Sequence record: PP047752
DNA from: Escherichia phage KEP2
DNA length: 64,000 nt
Reading direction: 5' to 3' (one strand)
Both the position numbers and the translations under genes were made by a program. This document shows positions 2,569 through 8,033 of the stretch, one piece after another. The notes beneath the pieces were generated by a model. That model searched no databases and was not told the DNA's origin. It worked only from the letters and a program-made list of their open reading frames with translations. Numbering within the stretch: the first letter of the stretch is position 1; the number at the start of each line of letters is the position of its first letter.

Positions 2569-2940
2569 ATGAAAAACAGAACAAACAAAGGCCAGTTTAA
2601 AAAAGGCCAGTCTGGAAACCCATCTGGAAGACCAAAAGGCTCTCGTAACAAAAGCTCACTTGTAAAAGCTCAACTGACCATTGATAATTCTGCTGAGTTT
2701 GCTGCAAAGTTGTTTGAAGCGATTGTTACAAGGGACGCTGCTAAGCTTGCAGAGTTCGGGTTAAACACAGATGACGTAACCATCAAGAGCATGATTGAGG
2801 TCGGTAAAACTATCTTTACTCACTCAGCAGGTGAGATGAAAGCACTTGCAGCAGACACTAAGAAGACTCCTGATAATGGTGGTCAGTCACAGACAGATAA
2901 CAAACCAACGTTCTCTGCTGTAGCGACTCTCAAAAAATAA
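2569..2940 (+). CDS. hypothetical protein with Gly/Pro/Lys-rich N-terminus (GNPSGRPKGSRNK)
   Basis: 123-aa ORF downstream of promoter-like region. Confidence 0.5.
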   Translation: MKNRTNKGQFKKGQSGNPSGRPKGSRNKSSLVKAQLTIDNSAEFAAKLFEAIVTRDAAKLAEFGLNTDDVTIKSMIEVGKTIFTHSAGEMKALAADTKKTPDNGGQSQTDNKPTFSAVATLKK

Positions 2941-2952
2941 TTTTAAAAGGTG

Positions 2953-2988
2953 TTGACAGACTCTACAAAGTTACTCTAAAGTCTGTCA
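2953..2988 (+). promoter_or_regulatory. TTGACA box inside a 9-bp inverted repeat (GACAGACTC…AGTCTGTC), promoter/operator candidate upstream of 3022 gene
   Basis: TTGACA at 2953-2958; palindrome arms at about 2955-2963 and 2981-2988. Confidence 0.35.
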
Positions 2989-3021: not shown

Positions 3022-4437
3022 ATGAGCGAATTATTTAAACATGCGCACCTTCATGCAGGTCGAACTGAAAATGGTGCTGTAAACCATACTTCATCAATGT
3101 CTGCTCTGGTAGACTTCTACAAAGCCGCTGGCTCAAGCCGTAGCAATGTAGAAATTTTACCAGACCTGTTCTACAAAGCTTTGCGTGAGGATGTTGATGT
3201 TGCAGTTCGTATTTTACTGCATATGCGAGATGTAAGAGAAGGTATGGGTGAGCGTAAAGCTTTCCGAACTGTTTTACTTCAAGCGATTGAAGATAAAGTT
3301 TTAGAACCTACACAGGTTCTTCGCATTATGGATAAGATTGCAGAGCTTGGTCGTTTTGATGACTTCAAAATCTTCGTAGGTACTCGTTTTGAGACAGATG
3401 CCTTCAAACATTTAGAAGCAGCATTACTAGACCCTGCAACAGCAGGTTTAGCAGCTAAGTGGTTACCACGAGTAAAACCACGCCACAAACAGTTTGTAAA
3501 ACGTTTCTGTAAGTTTGCAAACTTAAGTGAGAAGGAGTATCGCACACTGTTATCTGCACTGTCTGATACAGTTGAGCAAAAAATCTCTGCTAATGAGTTT
3601 GGTAAGATTGACTACAGCAAGATTCCTTCACTCGCTGCTGCACGTTACCAAAAGCTCTTTAACCGTAAAGATGGGGAACGTTACAAAGCTTACATTGAGT
3701 CCCTCTCAAAAGGTGAGGCTAAGATTAACGCTGGTGCTGTTTACCCATACGATGTGATTAAATCTATCAAGTATGGTAATGCAGATGTTGCTAATGAGCA
3801 GTGGAAAGCACTACCAAACTGGATGGCAGATGGTGAAAACATCTTGTGTATGACTGATGTTTCAAGCTCAATGTCTTGGGTGAATCTTGGTTCAATCACT
3901 GCCCTTGATATTGGTGTATCACTTGCCTTGTATGTAGCAGAACGCAATACAGGTTGCTTTAAGAATGAGTTAATGGTTTATTCAACAAACCCTCACTTCA
4001 TCGAACTGAGTGGTGATTTACGAAACCGTCATCGTCAGGTAATGCGTCATGTTGAATATGGCTCAACTAACTTACAAGCAGCTTTTGACCGCATTCTTGA
4101 GATAGGTAAGAGAAACAACTTGACTCAGAAAGATATGCCAAGTAAGCTTATCATCTTCTCTGATATGGAGTTTAATCAGGTTGATGGTGCAAATGGTCGT
4201 ACAAACTTTGAAGCAATTCAGAGTAAGTACAAAAAAGCTGGATACGAAATGCCACAACTAGTATTCTGGTACTTAGCAAACCGTAATGGTACTTGCGAAG
4301 TATCTGTTAAGGATAATGGTGTAGCAATGGTATCAGGGTTCTCTCCAGCCACTTTAAAAGCTCTGCTTGGTGGTGAGAAGTTTGACCCAATCAGCGTAAT
4401 GCTCAAAGCAGTAATGATTGACCGTTACATCTGGTAA
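3022..4437 (+). CDS. vWA-domain protein, candidate Ro60/Rsr-like (TROVE-vWA) RNA-binding protein
   Basis: 471 aa; MIDAS-type D-x-S-x-S (MTDVSSSMSW) and downstream LIIFSDMEF motif resemble the Ro60 vWA domain as I recall it; helical N-terminal ~270 aa; lies just upstream of tRNA/Y-RNA-like cluster. TROVE assignment is not verified. Confidence 0.45.
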   Translation: MSELFKHAHLHAGRTENGAVNHTSSMSALVDFYKAAGSSRSNVEILPDLFYKALREDVDVAVRILLHMRDVREGMGERKAFRTVLLQAIEDKVLEPTQVLRIMDKIAELGRFDDFKIFVGTRFETDAFKHLEAALLDPATAGLAAKWLPRVKPRHKQFVKRFCKFANLSEKEYRTLLSALSDTVEQKISANEFGKIDYSKIPSLAAARYQKLFNRKDGERYKAYIESLSKGEAKINAGAVYPYDVIKSIKYGNADVANEQWKALPNWMADGENILCMTDVSSSMSWVNLGSITALDIGVSLALYVAERNTGCFKNELMVYSTNPHFIELSGDLRNRHRQVMRHVEYGSTNLQAAFDRILEIGKRNNLTQKDMPSKLIIFSDMEFNQVDGANGRTNFEAIQSKYKKAGYEMPQLVFWYLANRNGTCEVSVKDNGVAMVSGFSPATLKALLGGEKFDPISVMLKAVMIDRYIW

Positions 4438-4455
4438 AAAGTTTTAAAAAGGGTA

Positions 4456-4484
4456 TTGACAATGTGTTTGATACCCTTTAATAT
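4456..4484 (+). promoter_or_regulatory. sigma70-like promoter (TTGACA-17-TAATAT) leading the tRNA array
   Basis: TTGACA 4456-4461, 17-nt spacer, TAATAT 4479-4484; flanked by GGGTAT/ATACCC inverted repeat. Confidence 0.55.
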
Positions 4485-4546
4485 GTTCTACATAGAAACG
4501 AAATGAGAGCTTTTCTAAGATACTGAAAAATATTTTAAAAAAGTTC

Positions 4547-4580
4547 TTGACAACCACTAAAAAATAATGTTAAAGTGGTT
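4547..4580 (+). promoter_or_regulatory. second TTGACA box with ACCACT/AGTGGT inverted repeat
   Basis: TTGACA 4547-4552; weak -10 candidates; palindrome arms 4553-4558 and 4575-4580. Confidence 0.35.
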
Positions 4581-4602
4581 ACATAGAGTTTGAAAAGTTT
4601 AT

Positions 4603-4679
4603 CTCTGTTTAGCTCAGCTTGGTAGAGCGTTCCGTTTGGGGCGGTAAGGCCGGAGGTTCAAGTCCTCCAACAGAGACCA
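4603..4679 (+). tRNA. tRNA-Pro (anticodon TGG)
   Basis: Acceptor complementarity, TAGCTCAG D-arm, anticodon loop TTTGGGG, T-arm GGAGG-TTCAAGT-CCTCC. Confidence 0.7.
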
Positions 4680-4686
4680 AATTAAT

Positions 4687-4764
4687 GTTCCAGTAGACAA
4701 AATGGTAAAGTCACCACTCTTTCAAAGTGGATATTTGAGGGTTCAAATCCCTTCTGGAACGCCA
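4687..4764 (+). tRNA. tRNA-Glu (anticodon TTC)
   Basis: Acceptor GTTCCAG/CTGGAAC, anticodon stem CCACT/AGTGG with loop CTTTCAA, T-loop TTCAAAT, CCA encoded. Confidence 0.7.
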
Positions 4765-4771
4765 GTTTTGA

Positions 4772-4844
4772 CAGAAGACCAATTACAGCAAACTTAATCT
4801 TATTCATCTGACACGAAATCGGACAAAGAAGAGGTTTGGTCTGG
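4772..4844 (+). repeat. hairpin module A of CAGAAGACC…GGTCTGG family
   Basis: 5' CAGAAGACCAA pairs with 3' TTGGTCTGG; CAGCAA box in loop. Confidence 0.5.
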
Positions 4845-4855
4845 TCATTAAGAAT

Positions 4856-4932
4856 TGCGGGTATAGAGAAAGGGCGTCTCACATGTCTCATTAGCATGGT
4901 ATCGGCAGGTTCGACTCCTGCACCCGCCTCCA
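4856..4932 (+). tRNA. tRNA with anticodon CAT (Met or Ile2)
   Basis: D-stem GAGA/TCTC, anticodon stem CATGT/GCATG with loop CTCATTA, T-arm GCAGG-TTCGACT-CCTGC, CCA encoded; one acceptor mismatch. Confidence 0.55.
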
Positions 4933-4938
4933 ATTTTG

Positions 4939-4998
4939 CAGAAGACCGTATTCAGCAACAAAATACTTTTTGCGGATAAAAGAAAAAACACGGTCTGG
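4939..4998 (+). repeat. hairpin module B of CAGAAGACC…GGTCTGG family
   Basis: 5' CAGAAGACCGT pairs with 3' ACGGTCTGG (compensatory change relative to A and C); CAGCAA box. Confidence 0.5.
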
Positions 4999-5009
4999 CA
5001 ATGTATTAA

Positions 5010-5086
5010 GGTTAGGAAGCACATAAGGTATGTGCGGTCGCCTGTTAAGCGAATGGCACAGGGTTCGAATCCCTGACTAACCGCCA
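5010..5086 (+). tRNA. tRNA-Asn (anticodon GTT)
   Basis: D-stem GCAC/GTGC, anticodon loop CTGTTAA, T-arm CAGGG-TTCGAAT-CCCTG, CCA encoded. Confidence 0.7.
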
Positions 5087-5173
5087 AATTATAATAAGTA
5101 TTTCAAGATGATGTTTTGAGAGGGCTATTTAGCCCCTCCCTTAAAGAGTTCTTACGAGTATTCTTTAAAGGAG

Positions 5174-5248
5174 CAGAAGACCAAATTCAGCAAGTACGTA
5201 TGATATTTTCAAGCCAATCAAATTTTGAAAAATTTAAACTTGGTCTGG
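5174..5248 (+). repeat. hairpin module C of CAGAAGACC…GGTCTGG family
   Basis: 5' CAGAAGACCAA pairs with 3' TTGGTCTGG; CAGCAA box. Confidence 0.5.
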
Positions 5249-5261
5249 CTCAACAAATTTA

Positions 5262-5393
5262 CAGAAGACCGTTTACAGCAAAACTTAAACAATCTATTTC
5301 TCCGGTAAAGAAAAGGTGAAGGTTCGATTCCTTCACTCGGCAGATGTCGAGTTGGTGTAATGGTAACACTTAAGATGATAAACAACGGTCTGG
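5262..5393 (+). ncRNA. candidate Y-RNA-like (YrlA-like) ncRNA with permuted tRNA-like core
   Basis: Terminal stem AGACCG(5266-5271)/CGGTCT(5386-5391); inside, T-arm GAAGG-TTCGATT-CCTTC (5318-5334), 7-bp acceptor-like stem ACTCGGC/GTCGAGT closed by AGAT loop (5335-5352), D-arm GTGT-AATGGTA-ACAC (5355-5369). Confidence 0.45.
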
Positions 5394-5542
5394 TAATTAT
5401 CTTTGTAGGTGAGCTATTAAGCTTACCTGTGAGTATGCGACCACAAAGGGTGAAAGGGTAAATTCTAGATTTAAACCCAACAAGGCACATCGCTACAGAC
5501 CTTAAGCAAGTCTGGGTAGCTTATCTACAAAGATAATTTAAT

Positions 5543-5618
5543 GGAAGTGTAGCAGAATGGTGATGCGGCAGACTTTTAATCTGACAGGCGATGGGTTCGA
5601 ATCCCTCCACTTCTACCA
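5543..5618 (+). tRNA. tRNA-Lys (anticodon TTT)
   Basis: Acceptor GGAAGTG/CACTTCT, anticodon loop CTTTTAA, T-loop TTCGAAT, CCA encoded. Confidence 0.6.
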
Positions 5619-5622
5619 ATAT

Positions 5623-5699
5623 GGTTCAGTCGCAGATAAGGTAATGCAGGGGTTTCATAAGCCCTTTGAATGTGGGTTAGATTCCCATCTGAACCTCCA
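5623..5699 (+). tRNA. tRNA with anticodon CAT (Met or Ile2)
   Basis: Acceptor GGTTCAG/CTGAACC, anticodon stem GGGGT/GCCCT with loop TTCATAA; T-loop atypical (TTAGATT). Confidence 0.5.
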
Positions 5700-5701
5700 A
5701 T

Positions 5702-5776
5702 TGTGGGTTAGCATAAATGGTAATGCAAACGGCTGATAACCGTTAGAAGAGGGTTCGATACCCTCACCTACAACCA
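5702..5776 (+). tRNA. tRNA-Ile (anticodon GAT)
   Basis: D-stem GCAT/ATGC, perfect anticodon stem AACGG/CCGTT with loop CTGATAA, T-arm GAGGG-TTCGATA-CCCTC, CCA encoded. Confidence 0.75.
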
Positions 5777-5791
5777 ATTTCAATAAAGTTG

Positions 5792-5820
5792 TTGACATTG
5801 AGATGTGACCACTTTATAGT
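5792..5820 (+). promoter_or_regulatory. sigma70-like promoter (TTGACA-17-TATAGT) inside the tRNA array
   Basis: TTGACA 5792-5797, 17-nt spacer, TATAGT 5815-5820. Confidence 0.55.
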
Positions 5821-6113
5821 AACTAAAATACTTCATAATATGTATAATTCAAACACCAATACATGAGCGTTAGACGTAACACAATGTGGGGAAATTTGTT
5901 GTACATATTCTGAATAGTTTTCGTTGCGTAGCGTCTATTTTGCAAATTTAAAATAAATGCAAACGACAATGTTTTTCTGGCAGTAGCTTGATAGGCTAAA
6001 CACCAGTGAGGTCTTCCAATCCCTCATCAAAGAATTTGGCGTACTCGCCCACGGTATGATTAATAAGGTGGGCATCTTTAAGGGCTTTCTAAGAGAGTCT
6101 TTAAAGATAATTA

Positions 6114-6195
6114 CGGGGCGTATCTCAGCGGTCTTCTAAACCGCCGTTAACCGAGTAAGTGGAGTATGCGGGTTCGAGTCCTGCCGCCTCGACCA
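6114..6195 (+). tRNA. atypical tRNA-like element (T-arm, acceptor and TCT anticodon-like loop; no recognisable D-arm)
   Basis: Acceptor CGGGGCG/CGCCTCG plus CCA, T-arm GCGGG-TTCGAGT-CCTGC, stem-loop GCGGT-CTTCTAA-ACCGC; 82 nt. Confidence 0.4.
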
Positions 6196-6209
6196 ATTTT
6201 GGAGAAATC

Positions 6210-6557
6210 ATGAAAACTTGTATTAGGTGCAAACTTAGCAAGGATGAAAATGATTTCTACATGAAAGATGGTAAGAGAACTCATTCATACTGTAAAAAGT
6301 GTGTTAATGAGCAAACCATAGAAAGACAAAGAGCACTTAAACTTTCAGCTATTGAGTACAAAGGTGGGGTTTGTCATGATTGTGGTAAAAGGTATCATCC
6401 AGCAGTGTATGACTTCCATCATTTGAATCCTTCAGAGAAAGATTTTAACATTGGTCATAGAAAAAGTCTGAAGTTCTCTCAAGAACTAAAAGATGAACTT
6501 GACAAATGTGTTTTGCTATGTTCAAATTGCCATAGGGTAAGACATGCAAAGTATTAG
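6210..6557 (+). CDS. HNH homing-endonuclease-like protein
   Basis: CxxC…CxxC zinc pairs and HH…N…CH motif (YDFHHLNP…CSNCHRVRH); start taken at ATG 6210 because track start 6159 overlaps the tRNA-like element. Confidence 0.7.
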   Translation: MKTCIRCKLSKDENDFYMKDGKRTHSYCKKCVNEQTIERQRALKLSAIEYKGGVCHDCGKRYHPAVYDFHHLNPSEKDFNIGHRKSLKFSQELKDELDKCVLLCSNCHRVRHAKY

Positions 6558-6694
6558 TTAGCAGATTGCTTAGACGACCTTATCGGGTCTCCGTGTAAGG
6601 AGGTGGTCTGTATCTCATGTTTTCCAGAACATGTAAATAATCTGAGAAGGGGCTTTACAGTGTTGCGAAAATACGGTAAGCTTCGAATTATAGT

Positions 6695-6776
6695 GTGGGA
6701 CGATGTTAAGACTCTAAGGCATGAGCAACGGCCTCCAAAACCGTTTCAAAGTGGTTCAACTCCTCCGTCCCATGCC
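6695..6776 (+). tRNA. tRNA-Trp-like (anticodon CCA), atypical length
   Basis: Acceptor GTGGGAC/GTCCCAT plus CCA, anticodon loop CTCCAAA; D-region too long for a canonical fold. Confidence 0.4.
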
Positions 6777-6790
6777 AAAGTCTTATTAGG

Positions 6791-6878
6791 GGTAGGTAGC
6801 GGCTAATGGTAGCCAAACTGTCTTGAAAACAGTTGCCACTGTAGAGATACGGTGAGGGTTCGACTCCTTTACTTACCG
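6791..6878 (+). tRNA. tRNA-Ser (anticodon TGA), long variable arm
   Basis: Acceptor GGTAGGT/ACTTACC, anticodon stem ACTGT/ACAGT with loop CTTGAAA, ~20-nt variable arm, T-loop TTCGACT. Confidence 0.6.
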
Positions 6879-7135
6879 CCTAATAAGATTTAAAGCCAAG
6901 CTTCATTCGGATGTTGCTTTGGTATCCCTCGTGTATTGTCGTACACACTGATAAAGCACCTAGTAGGTGTCACGGAGAAGAGATAATATCAAGCTCTCCA
7001 AAGGTTCTAGTCACCGGATTAAACAAGACTATGCAAAGACCAATTTAGGTCTTTTTAGAGGGCTTCTAAGGTTATTACAGCTTGTTGTGGAACCTTGTTG
7101 CTTAGGTTCTTAGAAGTTCTCTAAAAAGATTTAAT

Positions 7136-7212
7136 GCACCTATAGCCCAACTGGTAGAGGCAGCAGACTTAGAATCTGCTCAGTGTGAGTTCGAATCTCT
7201 CTAGGTGTACCA
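7136..7212 (+). tRNA. tRNA with anticodon TAG (Leu codon CUA) but short variable loop
   Basis: Acceptor GCACCTA/TAGGTGT plus CCA, 6-bp anticodon stem AGCAGA/TCTGCT with loop CTTAGAA, T-loop TTCGAAT. Confidence 0.5.
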
Positions 7213-7219
7213 AATTAAT

Positions 7220-7295
7220 GCAGGTGTAGCAAAATGGTTATGCGGCTGACTCTTAATCAGTAAGACGATGGGTTCAATTCCCTCCACCTGTACCA
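7220..7295 (+). tRNA. tRNA-Lys (anticodon CTT)
   Basis: Acceptor GCAGGTG/CACCTGT, anticodon loop CTCTTAA, T-loop TTCAATT, CCA encoded; paralogous to 5543-5618. Confidence 0.6.
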
Positions 7296-7301
7296 AACAT
7301 T

Positions 7302-7377
7302 GGGGATGTAGTTTACATGGTTAAAACATAAGTTTTGCAAACTTAAGTACAGGGTTCAATTCCCTGCTTCTCCACCA
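7302..7377 (+). tRNA. tRNA-Ala (anticodon TGC)
   Basis: D-stem GTTT/AAAC, perfect anticodon stem TAAGT/ACTTA with loop TTTGCAA, T-arm CAGGG-TTCAATT-CCCTG, CCA encoded. Confidence 0.7.
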
Positions 7378-7459
7378 ATTAGTGCATCCATAGTTTAAAT
7401 GGGAAAATTACAGTCTTCCAAACTGAGGTTGAGGGTTCGATTCCCTCTGGATGCTCCAA
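7372..7459 (+). repeat. 88-bp perfect direct repeat, copy 1 (contains tRNA-Gly)
   Basis: Identical to 7785-7872 by direct comparison. Confidence 0.85.
7384..7458 (+). tRNA. tRNA-Gly (anticodon TCC), copy 1
   Basis: Perfect acceptor GCATCCA/TGGATGC, anticodon loop CTTCCAA, T-arm GAGGG-TTCGATT-CCCTC, CCA encoded. Confidence 0.75.
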
Positions 7460-7465
7460 ATTAAT

Positions 7466-7541
7466 GCTCCTATCGTATAATTGGCTATTACGGTTGCCTT
7501 GTAAGCAACTTATCAGGGTTCGAATCCTTGTGGGAGCACCA
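7466..7541 (+). tRNA. tRNA-Thr (anticodon TGT)
   Basis: Acceptor GCTCCTA/TGGGAGC, perfect anticodon stem GTTGC/GCAAC with loop CTTGTAA, T-loop TTCGAAT, CCA encoded. Confidence 0.7.
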
Positions 7542-7543
7542 AT

Positions 7544-7632
7544 TCAGAGGTCAAGTGAAAGACCGCTGGTGTCAACTGAAGACCGTAACAAATTCCACGG
7601 AGTTGAGTTAGCGGCACAACTTCAGACCTCTT
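7544..7632 (+). ncRNA. structured spacer, candidate small RNA related to the AGACC hairpin family
   Basis: Outer stem CAGAGGTC/GACCTCT, inner pairings CTGAAG/CTTCAG and CCGCT/AGCGG; contains CTGAAGACCGTAACAAATT resembling the 5' box of modules A-D. Confidence 0.3.
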
Positions 7633-7636
7633 TCAT

Positions 7637-7711
7637 ACTCGCTTAGTTTATATGGTAAAACACCACCCTTACAAGATGAAGAAAAAGGTTCAAGTCCTTT
7701 AGTGAGTACCA
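7637..7711 (+). tRNA. tRNA-Val-like (anticodon TAC), weak anticodon stem
   Basis: Acceptor ACTCGCT/AGTGAGT plus CCA, D-stem GTTT/AAAC, T-arm AAAGG-TTCAAGT-CCTTT; only 3 of 5 anticodon-stem pairs. Confidence 0.45.
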
Positions 7712-7712
7712 T

Positions 7713-7790
7713 GTTCCAGTATCCCAATTGGCAGAGGATGCAAGCTCAAACCTTGTATTAGTGACGGTTCGAATCCGTCTTGGAACACCA
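7713..7790 (+). tRNA. tRNA with anticodon CAA (Leu codon UUG) but short variable loop
   Basis: Acceptor GTTCCAG/TTGGAAC plus CCA, anticodon stem GCAAG/CTTGT with loop CTCAAAC, T-arm GACGG-TTCGAAT-CCGTC. Confidence 0.5.
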
Positions 7791-7872
7791 ATTAGTGCAT
7801 CCATAGTTTAAATGGGAAAATTACAGTCTTCCAAACTGAGGTTGAGGGTTCGATTCCCTCTGGATGCTCCAA
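7785..7872 (+). repeat. 88-bp perfect direct repeat, copy 2 (contains tRNA-Gly)
   Basis: Identical to 7372-7459. Confidence 0.85.
7797..7871 (+). tRNA. tRNA-Gly (anticodon TCC), copy 2
   Basis: Sequence identical to 7384-7458. Confidence 0.75.
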
Positions 7873-7895
7873 GTTATTTTACTCTCTCTCAATTA

Positions 7896-7968
7896 AAATA
7901 ATAATAATGCCCTGCTATAAGTATTCTTCCTTTCGCTACCGAAGAGTATTTTTAGACAGGGCTTTTTT
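7896..7968 (+). terminator. compound hairpin plus T-run at end of tRNA array
   Basis: GCCCTG…CAGGGC arms followed by TTTTTT. Confidence 0.45.
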
Positions 7969-8033
7969 ACAGAGTTATACTTTATAAGAAGACTTATACA
8001 GTATGTCTCTGACGTACATTGTGGTTTCTCCTT

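What the first reader, a model, noticed from the sequence alone, without database searches (positions are those of the whole stretch)
3022..5393. Ro60/Rsr-like vWA protein next to a Y-RNA-like element with a circularly permuted tRNA-like core
The 471-aa protein has a C-terminal vWA domain whose MIDAS (TDVSSSMS) and IIFSDMEF motifs resemble the Ro60 vWA domain as I recall it. About 800 nt downstream on the same strand, 5262-5393 has pairing ends (AGACCG/CGGTCT) enclosing, in this order, a canonical T-arm, a 7-bp acceptor-like stem capped by an AGAT loop, and a D-arm with the GG dinucleotide. That order (T-arm, 3' acceptor, 5' acceptor, D-arm, closed by a terminal helix) is the topology reported for bacterial YrlA-type Y RNAs, which bind Ro60/Rsr through the terminal helix and mimic the tRNA elbow. 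A Ro60-Y RNA module embedded in a phage tRNA array would be an unusual RNA surveillance or decoy system.
Basis: partly seen in the sequence, partly recalled or inferred. Interest (0 to 1): 0.85.

Follow-up and report, generated by a model that had tools for sequence, protein, structure and literature searches.

The report
Phage Ro60-like protein with four Y-like RNAs
A Felix O1-type phage encodes a ring-shaped Ro60-like RNA-binding protein followed by four small RNA genes, one a rearranged tRNA look-alike, and the same protein-RNA pairing recurs in hundreds of unrelated phages, so it is probably a widespread viral RNA-protein particle whose RNA half had not been pinned down.

Summary

Element 5259-5396 has the YrlA order: terminal helix, V, T-arm, acceptor-like hairpin, D-arm.

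All four share a helix AGACC.../...GGUCU-G followed by UWCAGCAA, and they lie between tRNA genes.

The same helix-plus-CAGCAA module flanks DUF2828 genes in distant phages: 78 matches on the gene strand, 8 on the other, about 4 in shuffles. Hosts include Vibrio, Aeromonas, Mycobacterium and Listeria.

A covariance model built only from distant phages finds 5266-5393 at E 1.6e-9. Rfam YrlA misses the window element but hits its relatives below threshold (E about 1e-5).

Verdict: a divergent Ro60-Y RNA module, a new variant of a known kind. Binding and expression are inferred, not shown.

The parts
2953..2982 (+). Promoter-like site (TTGACA-18-TAAAGT) upstream of the Ro60-like gene
   Evidence: A consensus match only; the number of such sites is not above the shuffle expectation.
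3022..4437 (+). Ro60-like protein gene, 471 aa: N-terminal alpha-helical repeat ring (DUF2828) plus C-terminal vWA domain (DUF7788). MIDAS residues D279, S281, S283, T349 and D381.
4456..4576 (+). Two promoter-like sites (4456-4484 and 4547-4576) ahead of the tRNA / Y-like RNA array
   Evidence: No terminator-like site lies between the array members.
4769..4847 (+). Y-like RNA e1, short form. Outer helix 4769-4772/4844-4847; loop AGA versus G; helix AGACCAA 4776-4782 / TTGGTCT 4836-4842; CAGCAA 4786-4791. Lies between tRNA-Glu (ends 4764) and tRNA-Met (starts 4856).
   Evidence: Model R2 hit 4776-4843, 17.3 bits.
4936..5001 (+). Y-like RNA e2, short form. Outer helix TTGC 4936-4939 / GCAA 4998-5001; helix AGACCGT 4943-4949 / ACGGTCT 4990-4996; CAGCAA 4953-4958. 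Lies between tRNA-Met (ends 4932) and tRNA-Asn (starts 5010).
   Evidence: Model R2 hit 4943-4997, 20.4 bits, E 0.041.
5171..5251 (+). Y-like RNA e3, short form. Outer helix GAGC 5171-5174 / GCTC 5248-5251; helix AGACCAA 5178-5184 / TTGGTCT 5240-5246; CAGCAA 5188-5193.
   Evidence: Model R2 hit 5178-5247, 13.1 bits. The fold on its own is not distinctive (z -0.37).
5259..5396 (+). Y-like RNA e4, long YrlA-type form. Outer helix TTAC 5259-5262 / GTAA 5393-5396; helix 5266-5273/5384-5391; CAGCAA 5276-5281; anticodon-stem-like helix 5284-5288/5370-5374; V hairpin 5297-5313; T-arm 5318-5334; acceptor-like hairpin 5335-5352; D-arm 5355-5369.
   Evidence: Model R1 50.8 bits, E 1.6e-9. Ortholog pair counts. 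Partial Rfam tRNA hit at 22-23.8 bits, below the gathering score of 29. ARAGORN makes no call here.

Best explanation
The locus encodes a divergent phage Ro60-Y RNA ribonucleoprotein.

Shown:
- The 471-aa DUF2828/DUF7788 protein has the Ro60 architecture: a ring of helical repeats closed by a vWA domain with an intact MIDAS site.
- Four paralogous RNA genes lie downstream on the same strand.
- All four share one module. The 5' and 3' ends pair (AGACCRN with N'YGGUCU), an unpaired G follows, and the single-stranded motif U-W-CAGCAA comes directly after the 5' strand.
- The same module flanks DUF2828 genes in phages of Proteobacteria, Actinobacteria and Firmicutes.

Inferred:
- The module is the protein's binding site, playing the role that the GGUCCGA / GNCGAA bulged helix plays for canonical Ro60/Rsr.
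- The interior of each RNA is a swappable effector module. In e4 it is a circularly permuted tRNA-like domain (V, T, acceptor-like hairpin, D), as in bacterial YrlA. In e1-e3 it is a short hairpin or A/U-rich loop, like YrlB.
- The RNAs are transcribed from the TTGACA promoters together with the tRNAs. e1 and e2 lie 3-8 nt from flanking tRNAs, so their ends would be cut by the tRNA-processing enzymes (RNase P and the 3' trimming enzymes).
- The particle tethers or sequesters host RNA-handling factors during infection, such as PNPase or other exoribonucleases and enzymes that recognise the tRNA elbow.
- This helps the phage control RNA decay or repair and contributes to the counter-defence activity reported for gp130.
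For: Protein:
- Ro60 fold over nearly the full length.
- MIDAS residues invariant across 42 homologs.

RNA in the window and close relatives:
- The four elements share invariant CAGAAGACC, CAGCAA and GGTCTGG. The base pairs next to these blocks covary between paralogs (A-U/G-C), as does the outer helix: TGAC/GTCA, TTGC/GCAA, GAGC/GCTC, TTAC/GTAA.
- All four are kept at syntenic positions in every Felix-like locus examined.

Family-wide association:
- In 65 loci carrying 39-46%-identical DUF2828 genes, a helix+CAGCAA descriptor matches 78 times on the gene strand, 8 times on the other strand and 0-8 times in shuffles. 46 of 65 loci have at least one match, and those inspected sit next to the gene.
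- Most of these loci have no tRNA genes, so the link is to the protein rather than to tRNA arrays.
- Ten long forms from distant phages show 95% pairing, with 16 of 21 pairs changed on both sides and 0 of 500 shuffles as good.

Covariance models:
- Model R1, built from those ten, finds window 5266-5393 at E 1.6e-9.
- R1 also finds an element right after the 'Ro-like RNA binding protein' gp54 of mycobacteriophage Rumpelstiltskin at E 2.5e-10.
- Short-form model R2, run without filters, returns only four hits in the whole window, and they are e2, e1, e3 and part of e4.
- R2 also finds three tandem elements directly upstream of the DUF2828 gene in Listeria phage LMSP-25.
- Rfam YrlA hits family members at E 1e-5 to 4e-4.

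Literature:
- Bas63 gp130 resembles Ro60 and counters the Ppl defence system (PMC11482910).
- Thermus phage phiLo Ro60 binds two adjacent Y-like RNAs and host PNPase (PMC12135203).
- Listeria phage CKA15 has very abundant unannotated transcripts within 2 kb upstream of its Rsr-like gene (PMC12282133).
Against: - No expression or binding data exist for these RNAs in any Felix-like phage.
- gp130 alone, from a plasmid or inserted in T7 (neither construct included the Bas63 RNA genes), restores plaquing on the Ppl strain (PMC11482910). At least that activity therefore does not need the RNAs.
- The protein has no detectable TROVE sequence signature.
- The RNA lacks the GNCGAA motif and fails the Rfam YrlA model in the window.
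- R2 E-values for e1-e3 are individually weak (0.04-1.2).
- The descriptor count requires pairing by construction, so only its excess over the controls is informative.
- Models R1 and R2 were built from alignments anchored with artificial G/C tags, and their E-values are rough.
- The V hairpin and the anticodon-like helix of e4 are only 81-87% paired among orthologs.
Confidence: 0.72

Rival explanations
1. The helix+CAGCAA elements are binding sites for the DUF2828 protein that act in cis. They would be autoregulatory or transcript-stabilising sites on its own mRNA and on the tRNA precursor, not free-standing Y RNAs acting in trans.
For: - In KVP40-like loci the motif AGACAUUU-UA-CAGCAA lies 22 nt before the DUF2828 start codon and has no nearby 3' partner.
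- In many phages a single short element sits directly after or before the gene.
- No terminators separate the elements in the window.
Against: - Up to eight descriptor matches occur per locus, several of them confirmed full-length elements. Some lie 2.4-2.8 kb from the gene.
- The elaborate tRNA-like domains show strong covariation, which a simple operator would not need.
- In Rumpelstiltskin, three elements sit between a terminator-like hairpin that follows the gene's stop and a strong intrinsic terminator, which looks like a separate RNA unit.
Confidence: 0.12
2. Protein and RNAs work independently. The protein is a protein-level inhibitor of host defence (Ppl). The RNA elements are tRNA-operon punctuation or tRNA-like decoys that never bind it.
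For: - gp130 alone rescues T7 on Ppl (PMC11482910).
- The elements in the window are interleaved with tRNA genes.
Against: - The elements follow the DUF2828 gene in loci with no tRNA genes at all.
- They are found across phages of three bacterial phyla.
- In the window they occur only beside this gene.
Confidence: 0.08
3. The element is only decayed or rearranged tRNA fragments plus a local repeat, with no function.
For: - A partial tRNA-model hit at 22-23.8 bits.
- tRNA content in this array varies between relatives; tRNA-Tyr and tRNA-Asp are missing here.
Against: - Compensatory changes keep the acceptor-like stem paired.
- Motifs and synteny are invariant across Felix-like phages.
- The window element is detected by a model trained on unrelated phages.
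Confidence: 0.02

Closest known systems
Bacterial Rsr (Ro60) with YrlA/YrlB Y RNAs (Salmonella rsr-yrlBA-rtcBA; Chen et al. 2014, PMC4201824; Rfam RF02553)
   Same: - A ring-plus-vWA protein with RNA genes within 4 kb on the same strand.
- One long RNA whose centre is a permuted tRNA-like domain in the order V, T, acceptor-like hairpin, D.
- Shorter companion RNAs that lack that domain.
- A terminal helix formed by the 5' and 3' ends.
- In Listeria phage LMSP-25, an RtcB ligase gene lies 1.3 kb downstream.
   Different: - The protein is DUF2828/DUF7788 with no TROVE sequence match.
- The motif next to the helix is UWCAGCAA, not GNCGAAN0-1G.
- The window RNA does not score against the YrlA model, and its relatives reach only 27-41 of the 69 bits required.
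- There are four RNAs, interleaved with tRNA genes.
Bas63 gp130 (Escherichia phage JohannRWettstein, MZ501086; PhageMaP preprint PMC11482910)
   Same: The same gene: 98% identical, in the same position at the head of the tRNA array. It was reported to resemble Ro60 structurally and to counter the Ppl defence system.
   Different: That work did not locate any RNA partner. It guessed that some annotated tRNAs might be Y RNAs. The elements found here are not annotated tRNAs; in Bas63, two small minus-strand 'hypothetical protein' CDS overlap or follow e3 and e4.
Thermus phage phiLo Ro60 with Yrl1/Yrl2 (PMC12135203; PDB 9KOP, 9L5Y)
   Different: phiLo Ro60 is a TROVE-annotated protein whose RNAs carry the CGAA motif. 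No tRNA-like domain or tRNA array is described for it.
Mycobacteriophage 'Ro-like RNA binding protein' (for example Rumpelstiltskin gp54)
   Same: The same protein family: 33% identity over the full length, DUF2828+DUF7788. It is followed by three helix+CAGCAA elements, the middle one a long tRNA-like form.
   Different: A phage of a different host phylum. The RNAs follow the gene directly and end at a terminator, with no tRNA interleaving. None of the three RNAs appears among the annotated features of the fetched region.

Membership tests
Ro60/Rsr (TROVE) proteins | TROVE domain detectable by sequence (Pfam PF05731, or similarity to solved Ro60 chains) | tested here: not met
   No TROVE hit at E<=1. 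phmmer and a 42-sequence profile against PDB sequences find no Ro60. The Pfam assignment is DUF2828+DUF7788.
Ro60/Rsr (TROVE) proteins | Fold: a ring of alpha-helical (HEAT-like) repeats closed by a C-terminal vWA domain | tested here: met
Ro60/Rsr (TROVE) proteins | MIDAS motif (DxSxS, T, D) in the vWA domain | tested here: met
   D279, S281, S283, T349 and D381 are invariant in 42 homologs of 42-89% identity.
Ro60/Rsr (TROVE) proteins | Binds Y RNA and misfolded RNA | not testable with these tools
   Only genomic association is available.
YrlA-type Y RNA (Rfam RF02553) | Score at or above the family's gathering threshold (69 bits) | tested here: not met
   The window element gives no YrlA hit at E<=10, even when only 171 nt are searched. 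Homologs in other DUF2828 loci score 41.4, 38.2, 35.8 and 26.7 bits.
YrlA-type Y RNA (Rfam RF02553) | Topology: 5'/3' terminal helix enclosing V, T-arm, acceptor-like stem-loop and D-arm, in that order | tested here: met
   Sequence and fold. Descriptor scan. Full-length alignment to R1 with all helices paired. Covariation in the acceptor-like stem.
YrlA-type Y RNA (Rfam RF02553) | GNCGAAN0-1G motif near the 5' end (proposed Rsr contact) | tested here: not met
   That position holds U-W-CAGCAA, invariant in all four window elements and across the family.
YrlA-type Y RNA (Rfam RF02553) | Encoded within about 4 kb of the Ro60 gene on the same strand | tested here: met
   The four elements start 332 to 822 nt after the stop codon, on the + strand.
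YrlA-type Y RNA (Rfam RF02553) | tRNA-type modifications; substrate for RNase P and the CCA-adding enzyme | not testable with these tools
   Sequence only: U8, A14, G18, G19, A21, the T-loop TTCGATT and A15:U48 are present in the window copy.
DUF2828-associated helix+CAGCAA RNAs (family defined here) | Significant match to a covariance model trained on members from other phage lineages | tested here: met
   e4: R1 50.8 bits, E 1.6e-9. e1-e3: they are the only R2 hits in the window besides part of e4, but with E 0.04-1.2, so each is inconclusive on its own.
Canonical tRNA gene | Cloverleaf with an anticodon arm, called by ARAGORN or by Rfam tRNA above 29 bits | tested here: not met
   ARAGORN makes no call at 5259-5396. 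The Rfam tRNA match is partial, at 22-23.8 bits.

The most novel reading that the evidence does not exclude
The helix+UWCAGCAA RNAs are an undescribed, very widespread class of phage Y-like RNAs. They would be the cognate partners of DUF2828 Ro60-like proteins, which occur in 709 sequenced phage records infecting Proteobacteria, Actinobacteria and Firmicutes. In this reading the shared module docks on the protein, and the swappable interior aims the particle at different host RNA-processing, repair or defence factors. Observed interiors are a permuted tRNA-like domain, a normal-order tRNA-like domain, a T-arm alone, or a plain loop. In Felix O1-type phages the RNAs would be produced by tRNA-processing enzymes from the tRNA array. 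This would give a mechanism for gp130-type counter-defence and a broad new family of viral RNA-protein particles.
Probability: 0.45. Interest if true: 0.8.

Novelty: new variant of a known kind. Interest (0 to 1): 0.62.

Why it matters
Ro60 with Y RNA is a conserved RNA-quality-control particle, and its function in bacteria and phages is still poorly understood.

This analysis ties a large 'domain of unknown function' protein family, present in hundreds of phages including Felix O1-type and other phages of food-borne pathogens, to a specific and easily recognisable RNA partner. That partner has a distinct binding motif.

It supplies concrete RNA candidates, with coordinates, a motif and mutable helices, for a protein already shown genetically to defeat a bacterial defence system.

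It shows that small hypothetical ORFs annotated over or beside these regions probably sit on RNA genes.

It also suggests that phages adapt tRNA mimicry by swapping the inner module of a common scaffold.

Tried and rejected
- Sequence tests for TROVE found nothing: Pfam at E<=1, NCBIfam, and phmmer and profile hmmsearch against PDB sequences. Only fold comparison showed the relationship.
- Rfam over 4400-8000 and over 5240-5410 gave no Y_RNA or YrlA hit in the window. Weak Dicty_Class_I and RsaE hits were dismissed as helix-only chance matches.
- A loose helix+motif scan had too high a background, 178 versus 105 versus 74. It was replaced by a stricter descriptor.
- Plain MAFFT alignments of the long forms misaligned the 3' strand, the acceptor-like stem and the D-arm. 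I anchored the ends with artificial G/C tags and dropped four odd sequences. The models therefore contain tag columns that real hits skip.
- R2 with default filters found only e2; filters had to be switched off.
- Several permuted-core matches turned out to be junctions of tandem tRNAs and were discarded (L050 7116-7174; L049 7291-7348; window 7183-7258 and 5665-5741).
- The supplements of Chen et al. 2014, which list the 22 phages, are not held. Two Wolin reviews are not held either. I therefore could not check whether any DUF2828-type phage was in their set.
- A Levitt-pair covariation (15:48) in e4 orthologs was considered. It does not hold: position 48 varies among U, C and A while A15 stays constant.
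Full report
**What the window is.**
The region matches more than 250 Felixounavirus genomes (Felix O1-like phages of Salmonella, E. coli and Shigella) at 80-99% identity. ORF 3022-4437 sits at the head of a tRNA array of 16 ARAGORN-called tRNAs between 4603 and 7871. The array is followed by ORFs that look like terminase and portal genes (my reading, not tested).

**The protein.**
- The 471-aa product is Pfam DUF2828 (N-terminal part) plus DUF7788 (vWA-like). VWA_2 scores only below threshold, and there is no TROVE hit at E<=1.
- Sequence searches against solved structures find no Ro60, either with the single sequence or with a 42-member profile.
- The family is large: 2834 clusters at E<=1e-3.
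- An AlphaFold model built on 42 homologs is confident (pLDDT 88.7, pTM 0.88).
- Foldseek against the PDB returns only Ro60/TROVE structures as its top 12 hits. These are Thermus phage phiLo Ro60, Xenopus Ro60 and Deinococcus Rsr, at E 2e-8 to 1.6e-6, with 515-553 aligned columns and TM up to 0.66. Generic vWA domains begin only at E 1e-3.
- The MIDAS residues D279, S281, S283, T349 and D381 are invariant in the family.
The resemblance extends to the N-terminal ring, although the protein fails the sequence definition of TROVE.

**What was already known.**
- The protein is 98% identical to Bas63 gp130.
- The PhageMaP preprint (PMC11482910) reports that gp130 is structurally similar to Ro60 and counters the Ppl defence system. 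It also works when moved into T7.
- PHROGs and RefSeq call the family 'RNA-binding protein'. Mycobacteriophage annotators call it 'Ro-like RNA binding protein'.
- Canonical TROVE Ro60 with YrlA-type RNAs is known in 22 phages (PMC4201824) and in Thermus phage phiLo (PMC12135203).

All stated features are present at 5262-5393 (details in the observation check). The fuller anatomy is:

| Feature | Coordinates |
|---|---|
| Outer helix TTAC / GTAA | 5259-5262 / 5393-5396 |
| Internal loop AGA versus G | 5263-5265 / 5392 |
| Helix AGACCGTT / AACGGTCT | 5266-5273 / 5384-5391 |
| Spacer UA, then CAGCAA | 5274-5275, 5276-5281 |
| Anticodon-stem-like helix CTTAA / TTAAG | 5284-5288 / 5370-5374 |
| V hairpin | 5297-5313 |
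| T-arm | 5318-5334 |
| Acceptor-like hairpin | 5335-5352 |
| U8, G9 | 5353-5354 |
| D-arm | 5355-5369 |

- This is the order described for YrlA: V, T, acceptor-like stem-loop, D (PMC4201824).
- ARAGORN does not call it, and the Rfam tRNA model matches only partially, below threshold.

- Three more elements lie at 4769-4847, 4936-5001 and 5171-5251.
- All four share invariant CAGAAGACC, T-N-CAGCAA and GGTCTGG.
- The pairs next to the invariant blocks differ in a compensatory way (ACCAA/TTGGT versus ACCGT/ACGGT), as does the outer helix (TGAC/GTCA, TTGC/GCAA, GAGC/GCTC, TTAC/GTAA).
- e1 and e2 lie between tRNA genes with 3-8 nt spacers.
- No terminator-like site separates the elements, and consensus-like promoters lie at 4456 and 4547.
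- All four are retained at syntenic places in every Felix-like locus fetched.
- Among 11 distinct e4 orthologs most helices never vary. The acceptor-like stem changes on both sides at 3 of 7 pairs and stays 98.7% paired.

**The decisive comparison: distant phages.**
- I fetched 65 loci with DUF2828 genes only 39-46% identical to the window protein. Most contain no tRNA genes.
- Next to these genes, on the same strand, the same module recurs. The consensus is A-AGGAUnnn-UW-CAGCAA, then an interior of roughly 20-45 nt, often A/U-rich, or a tRNA-like domain, then nnnAUCCU-G.
- A descriptor for this module matches 78 times on the gene strand, 8 times on the opposite strand and 0-8 times (mean 3.9) in shuffles. 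46 of 65 loci have at least one match.
- In the whole 64-kb window the descriptor also finds the four elements, plus six short matches elsewhere (three per strand) that I regard as chance.
- The interior is modular. Variants include a permuted tRNA-like domain (many loci), a tRNA-like body in normal order (L067 6329-6427), a T-arm only (L029 3854-3939, L082 3854-3941), or no obvious structure.
- Ten long forms show 95% pairing, 16 of 21 pairs changed on both sides and a covariation score of 0.80 against 0.22 in shuffles. The terminal helix was a selection criterion, so its pairing is circular. The T-arm was also partly a selection criterion: several seed sequences were first picked by scans that required a fully paired T-stem.

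**Covariance-model tests.**
- R1 was built from those ten distant sequences only. It hits window 5266-5393 at 50.8 bits, E 1.6e-9, across the whole real part of the model; the next hits are tandem-tRNA junctions at 19.8 bits or less.
- R1 also finds paired long forms in three further loci, L045, L047 and L060.
- It finds an element directly after gp54 of mycobacteriophage Rumpelstiltskin at E 2.5e-10, flanked by two short forms and closed by an intrinsic terminator.
- R2 was built from 22 short forms of distant phages. Run without filters, it returns four hits in the entire window: e2, e1, e3 and part of e4.
- R2 also finds three tandem elements between a promoter-like site and the DUF2828 gene of Listeria phage LMSP-25.
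- Rfam's YrlA model aligns full-length to family members L029 5409-5509 (41.4 bits, E 1e-5 in 66 kb and 4e-8 locally) and L020 3770-3880 (38.2 bits), and partially to L024 and L074. It matches the T, acceptor-like and D parts closely.
- Taken together, e4 belongs to a family whose other members are recognisably YrlA-like.
- Caveat: both of my models were built on alignments anchored with artificial G/C tags, and their E-values are rough.

**Breadth.**
tblastn finds the protein in 709 phage records. The largest groups are Escherichia 119, Mycobacterium 95, Salmonella 77, Vibrio 56, Listeria 54, Staphylococcus 42, Campylobacter 40, Enterococcus 36, Bacillus 28 and Aeromonas 23. The Mycobacterium, Listeria and Campylobacter representatives are also DUF2828+DUF7788 without TROVE.

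**Mechanism.**
- Shown: a Ro60-fold protein; four conserved, structured, same-strand elements sharing one module; and a family-wide association of that module with the gene.
- Inferred: the module is the protein's docking site, analogous to the bulged helix and GGUCCGA/GNCGAA strand bound by Ro60/Rsr.
- Inferred: the RNAs are cut out of the tRNA precursor by tRNA-processing enzymes.
- Inferred: the interior modules engage host factors, as YrlA/Yrn1 tether Rsr to PNPase and as phiLo Ro60-Yrl binds and damps PNPase.
- The published finding that gp130 alone rescues T7 on Ppl argues that at least this activity is independent of the RNAs.
- In Listeria phage CKA15 the homologous protein is present in virions. 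Three very abundant unannotated transcripts arise within 2 kb upstream of it (PMC12282133). This is compatible with the three elements seen in LMSP-25, but one of those regions (about 490 nt) is probably the neighbouring ROOL RNA.

**Verdict.**
The finding is real and correctly interpreted. It is a divergent member of a known kind of system, not a new kind. The new content is the identification of the RNA partners: four in this phage, and a conserved helix+CAGCAA module across the DUF2828 family. I could not find this in the searchable literature or in Rfam.

Noticed in passing
window 5392-5545 (+): A very stable structure lies directly after e4 and before tRNA-Lys. A closing stem of about 22 bp (ATTATCTTTGTAG... 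/ ...CTACAAAGATAAT) encloses several hairpins (-50.2 kcal/mol, z -4.9, 0 of 200 shuffles as stable). It has no Rfam match and no CAGCAA motif. It may be another non-coding RNA.
   Followed up: partly
window 6113-6195 and ORF 6159-6557 (+): A tRNA-Arg(UCU)-like sequence with a good acceptor stem, anticodon arm and T-arm, but no proper D-arm and a long extra arm. ARAGORN does not call it, and it gives weak tmRNA-model hits. An HNH endonuclease ORF (PHROG 2255, E 6e-42) starts inside its 3' part. Relatives have an ordinary tRNA-Arg at this place.
   Followed up: partly
window 5087-5175: The window lacks the tRNA-Tyr and tRNA-Asp genes that most relatives carry after tRNA-Asn. An unrelated 89-nt stretch with a GGGCT/AGCCC hairpin sits there instead. 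This explains the two-piece alignments.
   Followed up: partly
window 5218-5490 (-); L083 16749-17023 (-): The mechanical ORF list shows a 90-aa minus-strand ORF over e3/e4. In Bas63, one small minus-strand 'hypothetical protein' CDS (bas63_0137) covers the end of e3 and most of e4, and a second (bas63_0138) starts at the last bases of e4 and runs over the structured stretch that follows it. Both are probably mis-annotations of RNA genes.
   Followed up: no
L111 (Listeria phage LMSP-25) 2428-2979 and 6808-8019: A near-threshold ROOL RNA (88.5 bits against a gathering score of 99.1, E 9e-17) lies about 640 nt upstream of the three Y-like elements. An RtcB 'tRNA-splicing ligase' gene lies 1.3 kb downstream of the DUF2828 gene, recalling the Salmonella rsr-yrlBA-rtcBA arrangement.
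   Followed up: no
It may be an autoregulatory site on the protein's own mRNA.
   Followed up: no
L067 6329-6427; L029 3854-3939; L082 3854-3941: Variants of the family's inner module. One is a tRNA-like body in normal D-anticodon-T order, with the terminal helix in place of the acceptor stem (Rfam tRNA 55.7 bits, model positions 5-66). Two others keep only a T-arm.
   Followed up: partly
L040 3794-3843; L068 4816-4868; L022, L026, L030 and L035 short forms: Several short forms carry a second CAGCAA or AAGCAA copy inside the loop. This hints at two binding sites or a repeated recognition element.
   Followed up: no
window 2569-2940 (+): A 123-aa ORF directly upstream of the Ro60-like gene on the same strand. 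It has a very basic N-terminus (KGQFKKGQSGNPSGRPKGSRNK), falls in PHROG 4114 of unknown function, and is conserved in Felix-like phages (bas63_0129).
   Followed up: no
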